Under the pieces are notes generated by a model. It had not been told where the DNA came from, did not search any database, and worked only from the letters and a program-made list of their open reading frames with translations. 63,394 bases of DNA from a virus. Taxonomy: Duplodnaviria; Caudoviricetes. Shown here in pieces: positions 138 through 63,220 of the stretch. Positions within the stretch are counted from its first letter, which is position 1; every line of letters begins with the position of its first letter. Location: the IMG/VR virus record IMGVR_UViG_3300028588_000025, positions 1 to 63,394 of that record. The stretch is one strand, 5' to 3'. A program made the translations under genes and the position numbers.

Positions 138-330
138 GAGGGCTCAAGCTACGGTCGAAGGTACGGACGTGATCCTGACCCTCGAGCATGGTGTGGAATA
201 TGGCCTCTGGCTTGAGGTCATCCAATCGGGTTCCTACGCCATCATCATGCCGACCCTCGAGCAAGAGGGCCCGGGCATCATGGATGAGGTTGCACGACGA
301 CTCGCTAGCGCACGAAAGGGGAACAACTGA
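1..330 (+). CDS. 3' part of HK97 gp10-like neck/tail-completion protein (starts at 63213, crosses junction)
   Basis: Frame 1 open from 1 to TGA 328-330; AKQNAPWEDQTGDARANL and HGVEYGLWLE resemble gp10-like motifs; located between head-tail stopper and tail terminator. Confidence 0.7.
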   Translation: MIAWFNGPEWDDVAREAFADAAVRVESSAKQNAPWEDQTGDARANLRAQATVEGTDVILTLEHGVEYGLWLEVIQSGSYAIIMPTLEQEGPGIMDEVARRLASARKGNN

Positions 331-749
331 TGACTGCTCGCACTGCAGTTTACGGGGCGCTTGCCAACGATCAAGACCCCGAGTACCTCGACCTGATCGG
401 CCGGAGCAACCCTCGCGTCTTCGCCAAGAAGTCGATGACCTCTTCCATCGAGTCGACTCCCTACATCGTCTACAAGATGGGCAACTCGAGTGCTGAGGGC
501 CTGTCCGAGGATCGAGACCCTGAGCGCCAGTTCTTCCAGGTCTGGGTGCACGACTTCCACGATGGCAAGAATGCGGACTACATGCGCATCGACCGGGTCA
601 TCACCCACGTGAAGCGAATCCTCGAGAAGATCAACGGCCAGGGCATCTGGACCGTTACGTTCCTCGAGACCTCCCAAGACCTCAATGACGAAACACTCAA
701 TACCGTGTTCCGCTACCTGCGGTTCCAAATGATCAAAGAAGGAGAATGA
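330..749 (+). CDS. Putative tail terminator protein
   Basis: 139 aa; synteny upstream of major tail; FQVWVHD and terminal RYLRF strand pattern. Confidence 0.6.
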   Translation: MTARTAVYGALANDQDPEYLDLIGRSNPRVFAKKSMTSSIESTPYIVYKMGNSSAEGLSEDRDPERQFFQVWVHDFHDGKNADYMRIDRVITHVKRILEKINGQGIWTVTFLETSQDLNDETLNTVFRYLRFQMIKEGE

Positions 750-750
750 C

Positions 751-1095
751 ATGAGCGACACGAGCAGCAACAAGGTTCGAGTGGTCTTCAAGGGCGACGC
801 CGACATCCGCGAGCTCTCGAGCGCCGACCTGCAGGTCTCGGGTGTGGAGGGCTTCAGCAAGCGGGCCTTCTACCGCAACGTCCCGACCGAGGTCGATGAG
901 AACGTGGCCGCGGCCCTGGTCGACGCCCCGATCTACGGCGACTTCGAGTACTTCAAGCCCGAGGAGGAGGAGGTGGCTGCCGAGGCCGTCGTCCCCGCCA
1001 GCAAGAAGAAGGCTGGGGCTGGCACGGGTTCCGCTTCGACCTCGACCGGCACGGGCTCGACGACCACGGGCGGCAACGGTTCGTCGACCAGCTGA
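751..1095 (+). CDS. Hypothetical virion-module protein with Gly/Ser/Thr-rich tail
   Basis: RBS AAGGAG upstream; phage-like codon usage. Confidence 0.7.
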   Translation: MSDTSSNKVRVVFKGDADIRELSSADLQVSGVEGFSKRAFYRNVPTEVDENVAAALVDAPIYGDFEYFKPEEEEVAAEAVVPASKKKAGAGTGSASTSTGTGSTTTGGNGSSTS

Positions 1096-1200
1096 TCACG
1101 AATCATGAGGGGTTTGCCTTGAGCGTCGCTGGGATGCACTTCTAAGCGACTTGCATGCGCCGCATGATAAATTACCCGATGACAGGAAACGAGCCCGCAA

Positions 1201-1395
1201 ATGGCGACTGAGCTCAGGTGCAAGGGGACACTCTTCGGGGTAGTCTCCGATGACCTCAAGACGATTGAGGTCAAGTGCAAACGACGTAAGTGCGGCTACG
1301 CTCCCGGCATGGTAATCATCCACACCCTGTCACTCGAGACTGGGGAAGAAATCAACACTCAAAGGTTCTCCGAACCACTCTCAGGAAGGCAATAA
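1201..1395 (+). CDS. Small Mu Com-like zinc-ribbon protein
   Basis: ELRCKG...IEVKCKRRKCG resembles the Com-family IEIKCxRC motif. Confidence 0.55.
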   Translation: MATELRCKGTLFGVVSDDLKTIEVKCKRRKCGYAPGMVIIHTLSLETGEEINTQRFSEPLSGRQ

Positions 1396-1396
1396 C

Positions 1397-1948
1397 ATGG
1401 CACTCCCGGATTACGCACTCCCGTTTGGTCTGCGTGAGGTCGTTCTCACGCCGATCACCGATGCTGGCGTTCTCGTCACCGCCGATGCGTGCGCTCTGCC
1501 CGCCTCGCGTACCTTCAGCTTCACCGAGGCTGAGGACTTCGAGGAGCTCCAGGGCAACGACCGCACCGAGGCCTCGCACGGCGCCGGCCCCACCGTCGAC
1601 TGGGAGCTCGAGGGTGGTGGTATCTCGATGAAGATCTGGAAGATCATGTCGGGCGGTACCATCACCGAGTCGGGTGTCTCGCCGGCCATGGTCCGCAAGT
1701 ACACCAAGAAGACGAGTCAGCAGCGCCCGTACTTCCAGGTCGAGGGTCGCGCTATCTCCGACAACGGTGGCGACGTGCATGGTGTCGTCTACCGCTGCAA
1801 GGCCGACGGCGACCTCGAGCTCGAGCTGGCCAACGGCTCCTTCGCCCTGACCAGTGCCTCGGGCAAGGGTTACGGCAACCAGGTGACCGAGGACCTGTAC
1901 GACTGGATCCACAACGAGACCGCTAAGGCCATCAAGCCCGCGGCCTGA
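1397..1948 (+). CDS. Major tail protein
   Basis: 183 aa; strong RBS; strongly biased codons; upstream of chaperone and tape measure. Confidence 0.8.
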   Translation: MALPDYALPFGLREVVLTPITDAGVLVTADACALPASRTFSFTEAEDFEELQGNDRTEASHGAGPTVDWELEGGGISMKIWKIMSGGTITESGVSPAMVRKYTKKTSQQRPYFQVEGRAISDNGGDVHGVVYRCKADGDLELELANGSFALTSASGKGYGNQVTEDLYDWIHNETAKAIKPAA

Positions 1949-62043: not shown

Positions 62044-62054
62044 CATCCTCCTGA

Positions 62055-62085
62055 GGGGGGCAGTCAGTTATTAGGGCTGCCCCCC
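62055..62085 (+). terminator. Hairpin after the major capsid gene
   Basis: GGGGGGCAG...CTGCCCCCC. Confidence 0.6.
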
Positions 62086-62120
62086 TTACCCACATCCACT
62101 TCCACCAGGAAGGCAATACC

Positions 62121-62495
62121 ATGACCAAGAGTTACCAGCCGGTCTACTTCGAGAACTCGCTCGGCGAGAAGATCTCGAACGACCCGGTCTTCAAGGCCCA
62201 GCAGACGCTCCTCGCGGCTGGTGTGGGGTTCGCTGACTCGCAGCCCCTCGCCGCCCAGGATCAGCTCAAGCGCGCCGCGGCTCAGGACGACGACTCGCTG
62301 CCCGACAACGACGACGACGACACGCCCCCCACCGACGGCGACGGCTTCCGCACCTACGAGGAGCTCGACGGCCGTCAGCTCAAGGCCGAGGCGAAGACCC
62401 GCGAGGTCGACATCTCCGGTCTCAAGAAGGTCGGCGAGGTCCGCGCCAAGCTCATCGAGGCCGACAAGGCCGCCGCCAAGTCCGAGCAGGAGTAA
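62121..62495 (+). CDS. Head-module protein with C-terminal HeH/Rho_N-like motif
   Basis: YEELDGRQLKAEAKTREVDISGLKKVGEVRAKL. Confidence 0.7.
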   Translation: MTKSYQPVYFENSLGEKISNDPVFKAQQTLLAAGVGFADSQPLAAQDQLKRAAAQDDDSLPDNDDDDTPPTDGDGFRTYEELDGRQLKAEAKTREVDISGLKKVGEVRAKLIEADKAAAKSEQE

Positions 62496-62498
62496 CTC

Positions 62499-62834
62499 AT
62501 GGCTGACCAGGAGACCGCAACCGTCCGCAACCTGAGGGGACTGCTCGGTGAGTCGATCCCCGAGGGGGGCAACGCGAGCGACACCATGGTCAGCGAAGAG
62601 CAGCTTCAGGCTTGGCTCGACGACAACCCCAACAACATCGACGGGGCCGCGCTCAGTGGCTGGAAGTACAAGATGGCTCACTGGGCCGGCCTCGTCAATG
62701 TGGTGGATGGCGCCGCCTCGCGCAACTTCAGCGACCTCATGGAGCACGCTGAGTCGATGATCAAGATGTACACCAAGCTTGCCGCAGGCCCCACCACAGG
62801 CCGCGCACGAGTGGGAAAGATCACACGCTCATGA
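62499..62834 (+). CDS. Head-to-tail adaptor
   Basis: Synteny; LR.LLGE, SEEQL..WL pattern. Confidence 0.7.
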   Translation: MADQETATVRNLRGLLGESIPEGGNASDTMVSEEQLQAWLDDNPNNIDGAALSGWKYKMAHWAGLVNVVDGAASRNFSDLMEHAESMIKMYTKLAAGPTTGRARVGKITRS

Positions 62835-63220
62835 ACCACACCGAGCTCGTCATGCGACGACGCAACGTTCGTGAGTTCATCATGTCCGACCCGGTTGAGA
62901 TCATCATCTCCCGCAAGGGCCCCAGTACTCAGACTGCTGCCGGCGGGGTGATCCCGGGGGCATCGATGCCTCTGCCTCCTCAGACCGCGCGAATCGTCCT
63001 GAACAAACGACGCTTCAACAACGGGATAGTCAACTCCGAAGCGGGCGACATCCCACACACCGACTACCTGCTGGTCGGCATGCACACTCTCGACATCCAG
63101 GACGAGGACACCTTCCTCTGGATGGGCAACCACTACAAGGTCACGGGCAAGTACGACAACCGCCGTGAATCCACCCTCTGCTCGATCGACATCCTCGGGG
63201 AGCGCAACCGCAATGGCTAA
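62831..63220 (+). CDS. Head-to-tail stopper
   Basis: Synteny; DIQDEDTF.W.G..YKV pattern. Confidence 0.7.
   Translation: MNHTELVMRRRNVREFIMSDPVEIIISRKGPSTQTAAGGVIPGASMPLPPQTARIVLNKRRFNNGIVNSEAGDIPHTDYLLVGMHTLDIQDEDTFLWMGNHYKVTGKYDNRRESTLCSIDILGERNRNG

What the first reader, a model, noticed from the sequence alone, without database searches (positions are those of the whole stretch)
190..62842. Genome-wide, strand-skewed heptamer GGTGTGG (about one per kb)
Seen: 41 plus-strand GGTGTGG by eye (190, 841, 3134, 3569, 5663, 7928, 8678, 11150, 12880, 14280, 14957, 14989, 15696, 19085, 19877, 21001, 23953, 26566, 28926, 30593, 32159, 33187, 36866, 39068, 40136, 42438, 44248, 45222, 46201, 47306, 47958, 49716, 50822, 52175, 53555, 55224, 56448, 58330, 58960, 60101, 62220), 37 of them followed by A or G. 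There are also 23 CCACACC copies (e.g. 1320, 5958, 11361, 27294, 28235, 50970, 60347). A base-composition estimate at ~62% GC gives only ~6-7 per strand. Copies occur in several reading frames, in intergenic DNA, inside a promoter spacer (40136) and just downstream of promoters (14280, 30593). Inference: a maintained cis-signal such as a stoperator-like site, a Chi/KOPS-like polar motif, a nucleoid-protein site or a modification target. The TGTGGA core also resembles a DnaA box.
Basis: partly seen in the sequence, partly recalled or inferred. Interest (0 to 1): 0.8.

Follow-up and report, generated by a model that had tools for sequence, protein, structure and literature searches.

The report
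Evenly spaced phage primase-site heptamer
The phage genome carries the word GGTGTGG about once per kilobase, evenly spaced and mostly on one strand, and it is most likely the start signal that the phage's own primase uses to begin DNA fragments during replication.

Summary
GGTGTGG occurs 42 times on the + strand and 26 on the - strand, against about 11 expected on both strands together. It survives synonymous-codon shuffling and is spaced more evenly than chance on each strand.

The window is a complete lytic-type siphovirus, kin of Curtobacterium phage Shrew and Microbacterium phage Triscuit. Both kin, and all 26 metagenomic relatives (GC 43-65%), keep the same density although individual sites turn over.

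The word follows neither the host nor the capsid genes. It follows one gene: a RepB'/pRN1-type primase domain fused to a RepA-like helicase (window 32500-34596). All 15 phage genomes with a homologue of that domain have a TGTG-containing hexamer among their most over-represented hexamers. Their hosts span Actinobacteria, Pseudomonas, Serratia, Yersinia, Stenotrophomonas and Clostridium. None of 5 control phages shows this.

The shared core T-GTG-G/C matches the published template requirement of pRN1 primase and the RepB' start site.

Best reading, about 0.58: a genome-wide priming code, mainly for the lagging strand. No biochemical evidence exists.

The parts
190..196 (+). GGTGTGG copy, intergenic by my gene calls
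841..847 (+). GGTGTGG copy, sense, frame 0 (Gly-Val-Glu)
3134..3140 (+). GGTGTGG copy, sense, frame 0 (Gly-Val-Gly)
3569..3575 (+). GGTGTGG copy, sense, frame 0 (Gly-Val-Ala)
5663..5669 (+). GGTGTGG copy, sense, frame 0 (Gly-Val-Asp)
7928..7934 (+). GGTGTGG copy, sense, frame 0; same place in Shrew
8678..8684 (+). GGTGTGG copy, sense, frame 0
11150..11156 (+). GGTGTGG copy, sense, frame 0
12880..12886 (+). GGTGTGG copy, sense, frame 0; same place in Shrew and Triscuit
14280..14286 (+). GGTGTGG copy, antisense to - strand ORF 13835-14320
14957..14963 (+). GGTGTGG copy, sense, frame 0
14989..14995 (+). GGTGTGG copy, sense, frame 2 (Val-Trp)
15696..15702 (+). GGTGTGG copy, sense, frame 2; same place in Shrew and Triscuit
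19085..19091 (+). GGTGTGG copy, sense, frame 0; same place in Shrew
19877..19883 (+). GGTGTGG copy, sense, frame 0
21001..21007 (+). GGTGTGG copy, sense, frame 0; same place in Shrew and Triscuit
22436..22442 (+).
23953..23959 (+). GGTGTGG copy, intergenic
26566..26572 (+). GGTGTGG copy, sense, frame 0; the only copy with a DnaA-box-like extension
28926..28932 (+). GGTGTGG copy, intergenic
30593..30599 (+). GGTGTGG copy, antisense within leftward gene block; inside hairpin 30584-30605
32159..32165 (+). GGTGTGG copy, antisense within leftward gene block
33187..33193 (+). GGTGTGG copy, sense, frame 0, inside the primase-helicase gene
36866..36872 (+). GGTGTGG copy, intergenic
39068..39074 (+). 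GGTGTGG copy, intergenic, in the iteron-rich non-coding region
40136..40142 (+). GGTGTGG copy, antisense to a doubtful - ORF 40103-40519
42438..42444 (+). GGTGTGG copy, sense, frame 0
44248..44254 (+). GGTGTGG copy, sense, frame 0
45222..45228 (+). GGTGTGG copy, sense, frame 0
46201..46207 (+). GGTGTGG copy, sense, frame 0
47306..47312 (+). GGTGTGG copy at the start of ORF 47307-48203
47958..47964 (+). GGTGTGG copy, sense, frame 0
49716..49722 (+). GGTGTGG copy, sense, frame 0
50822..50828 (+). GGTGTGG copy, intergenic by my gene calls
52175..52181 (+). GGTGTGG copy, sense, frame 0
53555..53561 (+). GGTGTGG copy, sense, frame 0
55224..55230 (+). GGTGTGG copy, sense, frame 0
56448..56454 (+). 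GGTGTGG copy, intergenic
58330..58336 (+). GGTGTGG copy, sense, frame 0
58960..58966 (+). GGTGTGG copy, sense, frame 0; same place in Shrew and Triscuit
60101..60107 (+). GGTGTGG copy, sense, frame 0; same place in Shrew and Triscuit
62220..62226 (+). GGTGTGG copy, sense, frame 0
1320..1326 (-). GGTGTGG copy on - strand, antisense to a + gene
5958..5964 (-). GGTGTGG copy on - strand, antisense
8775..8781 (-). GGTGTGG copy on - strand, antisense
11361..11367 (-). GGTGTGG copy on - strand, antisense
13212..13218 (-). GGTGTGG copy on - strand, antisense
15839..15845 (-). GGTGTGG copy on - strand, antisense; same place in Shrew and Triscuit
19228..19234 (-). GGTGTGG copy on - strand, antisense
20422..20428 (-). 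GGTGTGG copy on - strand, antisense
22638..22644 (-). GGTGTGG copy on - strand, antisense
25220..25226 (-). GGTGTGG copy on - strand, antisense
26060..26066 (-). GGTGTGG copy on - strand, antisense
27294..27300 (-). GGTGTGG copy on - strand, antisense
28235..28241 (-). GGTGTGG copy on - strand, antisense
30781..30787 (-). GGTGTGG copy on - strand, sense frame 0 in a leftward gene
36247..36253 (-). GGTGTGG copy on - strand, intergenic
41541..41547 (-). GGTGTGG copy on - strand, antisense in ORF 41481-42650
41844..41850 (-). GGTGTGG copy on - strand, antisense in ORF 41481-42650
41894..41900 (-). GGTGTGG copy on - strand, antisense in ORF 41481-42650
42098..42104 (-). GGTGTGG copy on - strand, antisense in ORF 41481-42650
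43780..43786 (-). GGTGTGG copy on - strand, antisense
46724..46730 (-). GGTGTGG copy on - strand, antisense
50970..50976 (-). GGTGTGG copy on - strand, intergenic
54098..54104 (-). GGTGTGG copy on - strand, antisense
56660..56666 (-). GGTGTGG copy on - strand, antisense; same place in Shrew and Triscuit
60347..60353 (-). GGTGTGG copy on - strand, intergenic
62836..62842 (-). GGTGTGG copy on - strand, antisense
32500..34596 (+). Primase-helicase gene (698 aa), the proposed reader of the word: AEP primase (RepB_primase) + helix bundle + RepA/DnaB-like AAA_25 helicase + C-terminal winged helix
   Evidence: Pfam PF16793 E 8.7e-9, PF13481 E 6e-31, HTH families at residues 643-685; RSF1010 RepA 1g8y E 1.4e-4
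32500..33489 (+). Primase part (residues 1-330): catalytic alpha/beta domain plus helix-bundle domain
   Evidence: AlphaFold2 model with mean pLDDT 89; Foldseek best hits RepB' 3h20 (E 1.3e-10), 3h25, S-2L PrimPol 6zp9, pRN1 primase 9aam and 3m1m
38071..41239 (.). Mostly non-coding stretch rich in TGATATA(C/T) and ATATATC repeats. Candidate replication origin or genome-end region. Inferred only, and it may or may not belong to the same system
   Evidence: 13 of 15 + strand TGATATA copies lie here; GC is lowest in the 36001-40000 bin, 0.555

Best explanation
K-GGTGTGG-R is the template recognition and start site of the phage's own primase. That primase is the N-terminal RepB'/pRN1-type archaeo-eukaryotic primase domain, with its helix-bundle domain, of the primase-helicase encoded at 32500-34596. 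Proposed mechanism, all inferred: the RepA-like helicase part moves along the lagging-strand template, the helix-bundle domain recognises the GTG core in single-stranded DNA, and a primer is started with A opposite a T of the word, as in pRN1 and RepB'. Because the enzyme needs this word, selection has written it into the genome wherever coding allows. It sits about every 1.5 kb on the top strand and every 2.4 kb on the bottom strand, and long gaps are avoided so that Okazaki fragments can start at regular distances. The top-strand excess would mean that most forks move in the direction of the structural genes, away from the genome's left end. What is shown: the enrichment, the synonymous-site selection, the even spacing, the genome-level polarity, the link to the primase domain across phages, and the fold of that domain. 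What is inferred: the act of priming at the word, the start nucleotide and the fork direction.
For: 1. Selection on the DNA word. There are 42 + and 26 - copies, against 16.0 and 13.2 in 500 synonymous shuffles. Of 44 Gly-Val-Gnn sites, 28 use GGT-GTG, where codon usage predicts about 9%. Only 3 of 65 do so when the next codon does not start with G. In 551 kb of lineage DNA the exact word is 8.2-fold enriched (476 observed, 58.3 expected). Its 21 one-mismatch neighbours range from 0.33 to 2.5-fold.

2. Density is kept while sites turn over. Shrew has 44/27 and Triscuit 35/19. All 26 IMG/VR relatives (GC 43-65%) carry 0.55-1.34 copies per kb. Only 18 of 39 mapped window sites are at the same place in Shrew, and 8 of 36 in Triscuit.

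3. Even spacing. The coefficient of variation (CV) of gaps in the window is 0.50 on + and 0.59 on -, against about 0.95 for random placement (P<=0.003). Shrew gives 0.44 and 0.52. The effect also appears in Agatha, FF47, Dave, Gorgeous, GurgleFerb and Jojan60.

4. Polarity is at genome level. Inside leftward-transcribed blocks of 7 genomes there are 47 top and 29 bottom copies. Elsewhere there are 190 and 85.

5. The word follows the primase domain. All 15 genomes with a homologue of that domain have a TGTG-containing hexamer at rank 1-8 of over-represented hexamers, 11 of them at rank 1. Three of the 15 were tested only after the prediction was made. In 5 of 5 controls the best such word ranks 42-395. 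Gorgeous shares only the primase domain, a weak PolA match and AAA_24, and its top word is GTGTGC. Rosebush shares only the helicase part and shows nothing. Krampus has the same host and a related capsid but no such primase, and is not enriched, 6/6.

6. The variants are GGTGTGG, GTGTGGCC, GTGTGC, CTGTGGG, CTGTGC and ATGTGG. They share T-GTG-G/C.

7. Published biochemistry fits. pRN1 primase needs GTG in the template, starts at the base just 5' of it, needs one base 3' of it, and its minimal substrate ends in CTGTGC (PMC2034472, passages read). RepB' starts with dATP at T32 within the GTG at nt 31-33 of ssiA (PMC8567376, sections 3 and 5 read).

8. Fold. The model of residues 1-330 (pLDDT 89) is a catalytic domain plus helix bundle. 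Its best PDB matches are RepB' and pRN1 primase.
Against: There is no direct evidence that primers start at the word. Known relatives need only GTG, or a long hairpin site in the case of RepB'. Here all seven positions are specific, which goes beyond the known biochemistry. Even spacing is absent per strand in Lebethron (CV 0.98), Serbin (0.92) and P21 (1.37 and 1.11). The bias is only 62:38 in the window, and fork direction could not be established; GC skew was uninformative. All 15 positives also carry a related family-A DNA polymerase. The link to the primase therefore rests on T7 and Rosebush as polymerase-bearing negatives, and on prior knowledge that primases, not polymerases, read template words. 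The positives form about seven or eight lineages, not 15 independent events. One control, ValentiniPuff, has a mildly enriched TGTGGA (31 observed, 12.1 expected, rank 42). The C-terminal winged helix or an unrecognised small protein could be the true reader in this lineage.
Confidence: 0.58

Rival explanations
1. A Chi-like or other polar signal read by a different protein of the same replication-recombination module. One example is the Cas4/RecB-type exonuclease acting with the SNF2 helicase or the Sak4-like ATPase. The signal would mark phage DNA as self or control end resection.
For: The word is polar, G-rich, short and over-represented, like Chi (my own knowledge). The top-strand orientation fits an enzyme entering from the end left free by rightward packaging (inference). 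The module with the PD-(D/E)XK nuclease, AAA_24 and SNF2 travels with the word in 8 of the first 12 positives.
Against: By tblastn, the window's SNF2 gene has no match in Jojan60, GurgleFerb or Gorgeous. Its Cas4-like gene has none in Jojan60 or Gorgeous, and its AAA_24 gene has none in Serbin, Jojan60 or GurgleFerb. All of these genomes still have a TGTG word at rank 1. Krampus has an AAA_24 homologue and an annotated exonuclease but no enrichment. No phage-encoded Chi reader is known to me. A host reader is excluded by the spread of hosts and by the negative phages of the same host.
Confidence: 0.1
2. The primase is involved, but the enrichment is a by-product and not selected. These primases make DNA primers. 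If a primer of preferred sequence stays in the product, it would over time convert near-matches into exact copies. This would be a molecular drive like that proposed for DNA uptake sequences.
For: RepB' makes 10-12 nt DNA primers and pRN1 makes one ribonucleotide plus seven deoxynucleotides (abstracts and passages read). One-mismatch neighbours at positions 1-3 are depleted (0.33-0.68) while the exact word is 8-fold enriched. That is what conversion of near-matches would give.
Against: A drive alone does not predict spacing more even than random. pRN1 primer synthesis is reported as faithful (abstract of PMC2034472). Positions 6-8 lie 3' of any start and would not be covered by a primer, yet they are as specific as the rest.
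Confidence: 0.1
3. A binding site on double-stranded DNA for a phage protein acting in compaction, transcription control or helicase loading. Candidates are the C-terminal winged helix of the primase-helicase or the lineage-specific DNA-binding protein at 29817-30551.
For: The window's primase-helicase ends in a winged-helix domain. A conserved DNA-binding protein is shared with Shrew, Triscuit and Huwbert. Sites occur on both strands and in non-coding DNA.
Against: The DNA-binding protein has homologues only in the 3 close relatives. The winged-helix part is outside the aligned range in Agatha, FF47, Lebethron, Dave and P21. The word or its variants nevertheless occur in all of them. A double-strand site read without regard to strand would not keep a top-strand excess inside leftward genes, where that orientation is costly to encode.
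Confidence: 0.08
4. A target word of a DNA modification system. The module carries thymidylate-synthase-like, dCMP deaminase, dUTPase and kinase genes that in other phages make modified thymidines.
For: Such genes lie next to the polymerase in the window lineage, Agatha, FF47, Lebethron, Serbin and P744. The word holds two T.
Against: A modification target has no need to be enriched or evenly spaced. The window's nucleotide-metabolism genes have no tblastn match in Gorgeous, Jojan60 or GurgleFerb, which have the word. Nothing here tests modification.
Confidence: 0.04
5. Codon, dipeptide or base-composition artefact with no function.
For: 28 of 31 sense copies encode Gly-Val-X in one frame. GGT and GTG are fairly common codons, at 31% and 30%.
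Against: Synonymous shuffles never reach the observed counts (max 24 against 42, and 21 against 26). There are 26 antisense and 11 intergenic copies. Enrichment holds from 43% to 65% GC. Spacing is even.
Confidence: 0.01

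Closest known systems
Template recognition of the pRN1 ORF904 primase (archaeal plasmid; AEP prim-pol plus helix-bundle domain)
   Same: It strictly needs GTG in the single-stranded template. 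The primer starts at the base just 5' of GTG, one base 3' of GTG is needed, and the minimal substrate ends in CTGTGC (PMC2034472). The phage words share T-GTG-G/C. The window's primase domain matches the pRN1 primase structures 9aam and 3m1m by fold.
   Different: pRN1 needs 3-4 bases, whereas here 7-8 positions are specific. pRN1 is a small plasmid with no reported genome-wide spacing of sites. Sequence identity in the fold match is only 8-9%. The helicase part is RepA/DnaB-like here, not superfamily 3 as in ORF904.
RSF1010 RepB' primase with ssiA/ssiB, and RepA helicase
   Same: RepB' is the best structural match of residues 1-330 (3h20, E 1.3e-10). RepA (1g8y) is the best sequence match of the helicase part. 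RepB' starts with dATP at the T of a GTG triplet.
   Different: RepB' primes only at two 40-nt hairpin sites in oriV, and the plasmid replicates only in leading-strand mode. The phage has a short word spread over the whole genome, and primase and helicase are fused in one protein.
Phage T7 gene 4 primase sites 5'-(G/T)(G/T)GTC-3'
   Same: A phage primase-helicase reads a short G/T-rich word on the lagging-strand template. One base is read but not copied, and primers start with A (abstract of PMC12839067 seen in the listing; the remainder is my own knowledge).
   Different: The T7 primase is a DnaG/Toprim type with a zinc finger, not an AEP. In T7 no TGTG word is enriched. I did not test whether T7's own primase sites are enriched or evenly spaced.
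Chi sites (RecBCD/AddAB) and KOPS (FtsK)
   Same: Short, G-rich, over-represented, strand-biased words.
   Different: Those are read by host enzymes and are specific to the host species. This word is shared by phages of several phyla and is absent from other phages of the same host. The skew of 62% is far below that of KOPS (recalled).
DNA uptake sequences of Haemophilus and Neisseria
   Same: About one copy per kb, placed in the cheapest reading frames, and reported as spaced more evenly than random (recalled, not checked in a paper here).
   Different: Those are read by a DNA uptake receptor of competent bacteria and occur in both orientations alike. There is no link to replication genes.
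Stoperators of Cluster A mycobacteriophages
   Same: Many copies of an asymmetric site spread over a phage genome (recalled).
   Different: Stoperators are 13-14 bp, bind the immunity repressor of temperate phages, sit mostly between genes and are oriented with transcription (recalled). Here the sites are 7-8 bp, lie mostly inside genes, do not follow transcription, and the lineage is described as lytic (Triscuit).

Membership tests
Recognition/start site of a RepB'/pRN1-type AEP primase | The genome encodes an AEP primase with catalytic domain plus helix-bundle domain | tested here: met
   Pfam RepB_primase E 8.7e-9. The AlphaFold2 model (pLDDT 89) shows an alpha/beta domain followed by a helical bundle. 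Foldseek best hits are RepB', S-2L PrimPol and pRN1 primase.
Recognition/start site of a RepB'/pRN1-type AEP primase | The word contains the GTG core, with a T 5' of it and a base 3' of it, as in the characterised enzymes | tested here: met
   GG-T-GTG-G-R in the window lineage. All six variants in other phages keep T-GTG-G/C. The requirement is taken from PMC2034472 and PMC8567376.
Recognition/start site of a RepB'/pRN1-type AEP primase | Presence of the word goes with presence of the primase across genomes | tested here: met
   15 of 15 genomes with a primase-domain homologue have a TGTG hexamer at rank 1-8, and 0 of 5 controls do. The association is confounded with a related DNA polymerase I.
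Recognition/start site of a RepB'/pRN1-type AEP primase | Primers are made at the word in vitro or in vivo | not testable with these tools
   This needs a primase assay or mapping of nascent-strand 5' ends.
Chi site (host RecBCD/AddAB/AdnAB) | Specific to the host species and shared by unrelated phages and the chromosome of that host | tested here: not met
   The same word is the top 7-mer in phages of Gordonia, Mycobacterium, Pseudomonas and Yersinia. Krampus and Appa, which infect Triscuit's host, are not enriched. Host chromosomes themselves were not examined.
KOPS/SRS-type translocase guide | Very strong strand skew that switches at a defined point | tested here: not met
   42 against 26 in the window, with the - strand copies lying between + copies all along the genome.
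Stoperator (Cluster A mycobacteriophage repressor site) | A 13-14 bp site oriented with transcription, mainly between genes | tested here: not met
   Specific positions number 7-8. 57 of 68 copies lie inside genes. Orientation does not follow transcription. The feature definition is recalled.
DnaA box | A 9-mer TT(A/G)TCCACA | tested here: not met
   1 of 68 copies has the matching extension. Variants such as GTGTGGCC and GTGTGC break box positions. The consensus is recalled.
DNA modification target | A modified base at the word | not testable with these tools
   No read-level kinetic or current data were examined.

The most novel reading that the evidence does not exclude
A large and widespread set of phages, with hosts in Actinobacteria, Gammaproteobacteria and Firmicutes, hard-wire their lagging-strand start sites into the genome. 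They would do this with a 6-8 base word read by a RepB'/pRN1-type primase. The word would co-evolve with the primase's helix-bundle domain (GGTGTGG, GTGTGGCC, GTGTGC, CTGTGGG, CTGTGC, ATGTGG) and be held at regular distances by selection. If so, fork direction and Okazaki fragment length could be read from the sequence, and the template specificity of an uncharacterised primase could be predicted from its own genome.
Probability: 0.5. Interest if true: 0.8.

Novelty: new variant of a known kind. Interest (0 to 1): 0.72.

Why it matters
Primases are known to read short template words, but those words are usually three bases long and leave no visible mark on a genome. Here a seven-base word appears to be under genome-wide selection for number, strand and spacing, and related words accompany related primases in many phage lineages. 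If true, this has three consequences. The template specificity of hundreds of uncharacterised phage and plasmid primases could be predicted by computation. It would give a direct, testable handle on how AEP primase-helicases choose Okazaki start sites in vivo. It would also show that synonymous sites in these phages carry a replication code, which matters for recoding or engineering them. My searches of the paper library and the paper that describes Triscuit turned up no report of this word. For the library searches I saw only the listings and the passages named.

Tried and rejected
Codon or dipeptide artefact: rejected by synonymous shuffles and by the Gly-Val-Gnn codon choice.

Host Chi or other host factor: rejected because of the spread of hosts and the negative phages of the same host. 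I could not count the word in host chromosomes. The genome search draws no relatives for a virus record, and I ran no further search on this.

mRNA-level signal: rejected because the top-strand excess persists in leftward genes and 26 + 11 copies are antisense or intergenic.

Fixed convergent pairs of + and - sites: in the window, 12 of 25 - sites lie in the first quarter of the gap after a + site. In 13 other genomes or loci the effect is weak (histogram over 106 sites, KS P 0.009, mainly a lack of - sites just before a + site). I do not build on it.

Positional conservation as the cause of the counts: rejected. Only 18 of 39 sites (Shrew) and 8 of 36 (Triscuit) are shared.

DnaA box: rejected.

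Promoter association: the consensus scan of 28000-42000 gave 5 promoter-like sites against 4.6 expected, and none at 40136. The region around 14280 was not scanned.

Fork direction from GC skew: the skew is weak and of one sign throughout, so it is uninformative.

A first search for viral relatives with the capsid protein alone found none. An alignment of three capsid proteins found 26.

Literature: searches for the word itself return mostly aptamer and primer papers. Two candidate papers contain the letters only inside promoters, terminators or PCR primers. S10 Fig of PMC7302621 lists repeat motifs of other Microbacterium clusters. By its legend it does not cover Triscuit, but I could not see the figure.

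Not done: the look-up of sequencing runs and read laying, complex prediction, the search of protein representatives and the protein-atlas search were not used. No RNA family search was made. Huwbert was not fetched. For records longer than 50 kb (Krampus, P21, Gorgeous, Rosebush, Jojan60, ValentiniPuff) only 50,000 bases were analysed.

Full report
**What the window is.** The 63,394-base window is a whole virus record, rated 100% complete. Its closest named relatives are Curtobacterium phage Shrew and Microbacterium phages Triscuit and Huwbert. Their capsid proteins are 65-70% identical to the window's, and only patches of DNA match. Triscuit is published as a lytic singleton siphovirus with a 3.8-kb direct terminal repeat; the paper reports no repeated motif for it (PMC7302621: passages and section 22 read). 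Nearly all genes lie on the + strand. The exception is a block at 28937-32299.

**The observation.**
- GGTGTGG occurs 42 times on + and 26 times on -. One + copy (22436) and three - copies were missed.
- Dinucleotide shuffles give 11.3 for both strands together, and 0 of 100 reach 68.
- Under an order-2 Markov model it is the most over-represented 7-mer on the + strand, 42 observed against 3.3 expected.
- GTGTGG occurs 44 times on the + strand, and 42 of these carry a G in front.
- In the pooled lineage (29 genomes or loci, 551 kb, both strands) the exact word is seen 476 times against 58.3 expected. Its 21 one-mismatch neighbours lie between 0.33 and 2.5 times expectation.
- The base after the word is A or G in 93% of copies. 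The base before it is T or G in 70%.

**Coding does not explain it.** With 80 crude gene calls, 31 copies are sense, 26 antisense and 11 intergenic. Of the sense copies, 28 are in one frame, GGT GTG Gnn. That frame is simply the cheapest to encode, because the other two need Cys or Trp.
- Of 44 Gly-Val tripeptides followed by a G-starting codon, 28 use GGT-GTG, where codon usage predicts about 9%.
- Of 65 Gly-Val pairs followed by another base, only 3 use it.
- Five hundred synonymous shuffles give means of 16.0 (max 24) and 13.2 (max 21), against 42 and 26 observed.

**Conservation.** Shrew has 44/27 copies and Triscuit 35/19, against about 3 expected per strand. A capsid-protein alignment brought in 26 IMG/VR loci whose capsid proteins are 50-70% identical and whose GC ranges from 43% to 65%.
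- In all 26 the word exceeds expectation, at 0.55-1.34 copies per kb. The + strand leads in 22, ties in 1 and trails in 3.
- Only 18 of 39 mappable window sites are at the orthologous place in Shrew, and 8 of 36 in Triscuit.
- So it is number and spacing that are held, not particular sites. After one terminal repeat is removed, Shrew has the same 42/26 as the window.

**Spacing.** I measured the coefficient of variation (CV) of the gaps between neighbouring sites; random placement gives about 0.95.
- Window: 0.50 on + and 0.59 on - (P<=0.003).
- Shrew: 0.44 and 0.52.
- Triscuit: 0.58 on + and 0.55 for both strands together.
- The largest + gap in the window is 3.7 kb, where chance gives a median of 6.3 kb.
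- Using each phage's own word, even spacing also shows in Agatha, FF47, Dave, Gorgeous, GurgleFerb and Jojan60. It does not show per strand in Lebethron, Serbin or P21.

**Polarity.** If the + excess came only from coding cost, or from a role in mRNA, it should invert in leftward genes. It does not. In the leftward blocks of seven genomes there are 47 top-strand and 29 bottom-strand copies, against 190 and 85 elsewhere. Coding cost does modulate the ratio. In Serbin and Lebethron the rightward arm runs at about 5-8 to 1 and the leftward arm at about 1.3 to 1. A genome-level preference for the top strand remains.

**What the word travels with.**
- It does not follow the host. Krampus and Appa infect Triscuit's host and are not enriched.
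- It does not follow the capsid. Krampus has a related capsid, portal and tail genes.
- It does travel with the replication genes. Gordonia phage Agatha, Mycobacterium phage FF47 and Pseudomonas phage Lebethron have unrelated structural genes but a homologous replication module. In each, GGTGTGG is the top 7-mer (30/13, 32/7 and 34/11).
- Microbacterium phage Dave, whose primase-helicase is 27% identical, has GTGTGGCC as its top word.

**Narrowing to one domain.**
- Arthrobacter phage Gorgeous shares with the window only the primase domain (residues 54-295), a weak polymerase match and AAA_24. Its top hexamer is GTGTGC.
- Mycobacterium phage Rosebush shares only the helicase part and shows nothing.
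- Serbin gives GTGTGG, GurgleFerb CTGTGG(G), Jojan60 CTGTGC and Clostridium phage P21 ATGTGG.
- Across 12 genomes with a primase-domain homologue, the best TGTG-containing hexamer ranks 1-8 (rank 1 in 9 of them). In 5 controls (Krampus, Rosebush, Appa, ValentiniPuff, T7) it ranks 42-395.
- I then predicted the same for three genomes I had not yet examined. An uncultured siphovirus gave CTGTGG at rank 2 and CCTGTGG as top 7-mer. Pseudomonas phage Almagne gave GTGTGG at rank 1. Yersinia myovirus P744 gave GGTGTG at rank 1 and GGTGTGG as top 7-mer.
- Only the primase domain and a family-A polymerase are shared by all positives. T7 has such a polymerase and is negative.

**The protein.** Window 32500-34596 encodes a 698-residue protein with four parts. 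These are RepB_primase, an AAA_25 helicase, a C-terminal winged helix, and a helicase region whose best match among solved structures is RSF1010 RepA. At least 460 relatives exist in public metagenomes at E <= 1e-5. A model of residues 1-330 (pLDDT 89) shows an alpha/beta domain, a linker and a helical bundle. Its best PDB matches are RepB' (3h20, 3h25), the S-2L PrimPol and the pRN1 primase (9aam, 3m1m). Residues D103, D105 and D159 are invariant in 34 sequences. This fits the acidic catalytic residues of AEP primases, though I made no residue-level superposition.

**Fit to known biochemistry.**
- pRN1 primase needs GTG in the template, starts at the base just 5' of it, needs one base 3' of it, and its minimal substrate ends in CTGTGC (PMC2034472).
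- RepB' starts with dATP at the T of a GTG triplet (PMC8567376).
- The invariant part of all the phage words is T-GTG-G/C.
- I therefore read GGTGTGG as the primase's recognition and start site. GTG is the recognised core, a T is the start, and the flanking G residues add lineage-specific recognition or fix the first primer bases.
- The RepA-type helicase is reported to move 5' to 3' (recalled, not checked). It would then travel on the lagging-strand template, so the top-strand excess would mean that most forks run in the direction of the structural genes.
- A repeat-rich, mostly non-coding stretch at 38.1-41.2 kb holds 13 of the 15 + strand TGATATA copies. By gene order it corresponds to the genome-end and early region of Shrew. 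It is a candidate origin from which such forks could start. This last point is inference only.

**Limits.**
- Nothing here shows a primer.
- Seven specific positions are more than any characterised relative needs.
- Three positives lack even spacing per strand.
- The primase is confounded with its polymerase.
- The positives are perhaps seven or eight independent lineages, not 15.
- Rivals are listed with odds in their own section. One interesting variant is that DNA primers left in the product drive the word's spread, which would account for the depleted near-matches but not for the even spacing.

**Comparison and novelty.** The site works like a primase recognition site, and I file it as a new variant of that kind. 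It is read by an AEP rather than a DnaG-type primase. It is much longer than the known triplets. It is visibly selected for number, strand and spacing across the genome, and its variants track the primase lineage. I found no report of it in the paper library. Those searches show listings only, and subscription journals are largely absent from the library.

Noticed in passing
window 38071-41239: Mostly non-coding stretch packed with TGATATA(C/T) and ATATATC repeats (13 of 15 + strand TGATATA copies; several in tandem at 38940-38996). The 36001-40000 bin has the lowest GC of the genome (0.555). It is a candidate origin of replication or genome-end/early promoter region.
   Followed up: partly
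window 25704-26096 (+): A 130-aa protein with a strong Pfam match to Tad3, the type I Thoeris inhibitor (E 2.5e-35). It sits between the Cas4-like exonuclease and the AAA_24 ATPase genes.
   Followed up: no
window, whole + strand: CAAGTAC occurs 29 times on + and 0 times on -. 27 copies are in one reading frame (xxC AAG TAC, Lys-Tyr). It is prominent only under a first-order model, so it is probably a codon-pair effect.
   Followed up: partly
window 48912-48999 (+): ARAGORN calls a single 88-base tRNA-Ser with the odd anticodon ACT, in a stretch with only short doubtful ORFs.
   Followed up: no
window 14843-15295 (+): A 150-aa protein matching the pyrimidine dimer DNA glycosylase family (T4 endonuclease V type; Pfam E 1.5e-20), at the head of the replication genes.
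   Followed up: no
window 41541-42104 (-): Four - strand copies of the word within 564 bases, all antisense inside ORF 41481-42650, which has no Pfam match. This is the only local cluster in an otherwise even series.
   Followed up: no
window, all - strand copies: In the window, 12 of 25 - strand copies lie in the first quarter of the interval after a + copy, twice at exactly 143 bases (15696/15839 and 19085/19228). In 13 other genomes or loci the tendency is weak.
   Followed up: partly
L001+L002 (Shrew), unique part: After one terminal repeat is removed, Shrew has exactly 42 + and 26 - copies, the same as the window, although fewer than half of the mapped sites are shared.
   Followed up: partly
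L034 (Clostridium phage P21): TGTGG orientation switches along the genome: bottom strand 37 to 7 at 30-50 kb and 9 to 2 at 1-5 kb, against top strand 38 to 28 at 5-30 kb. The two strands together are evenly spaced. This fits either gene direction or two forks leaving the divergent region near 5 kb.
   Followed up: partly
window 18425-19453 (+): A 342-aa protein with no Pfam match is the most conserved protein between the window and Shrew (81%). It has homologues in Agatha and FF47, always between the dUTPase and thymidylate synthase genes, so it is possibly a nucleotide-metabolism enzyme.
   Followed up: no
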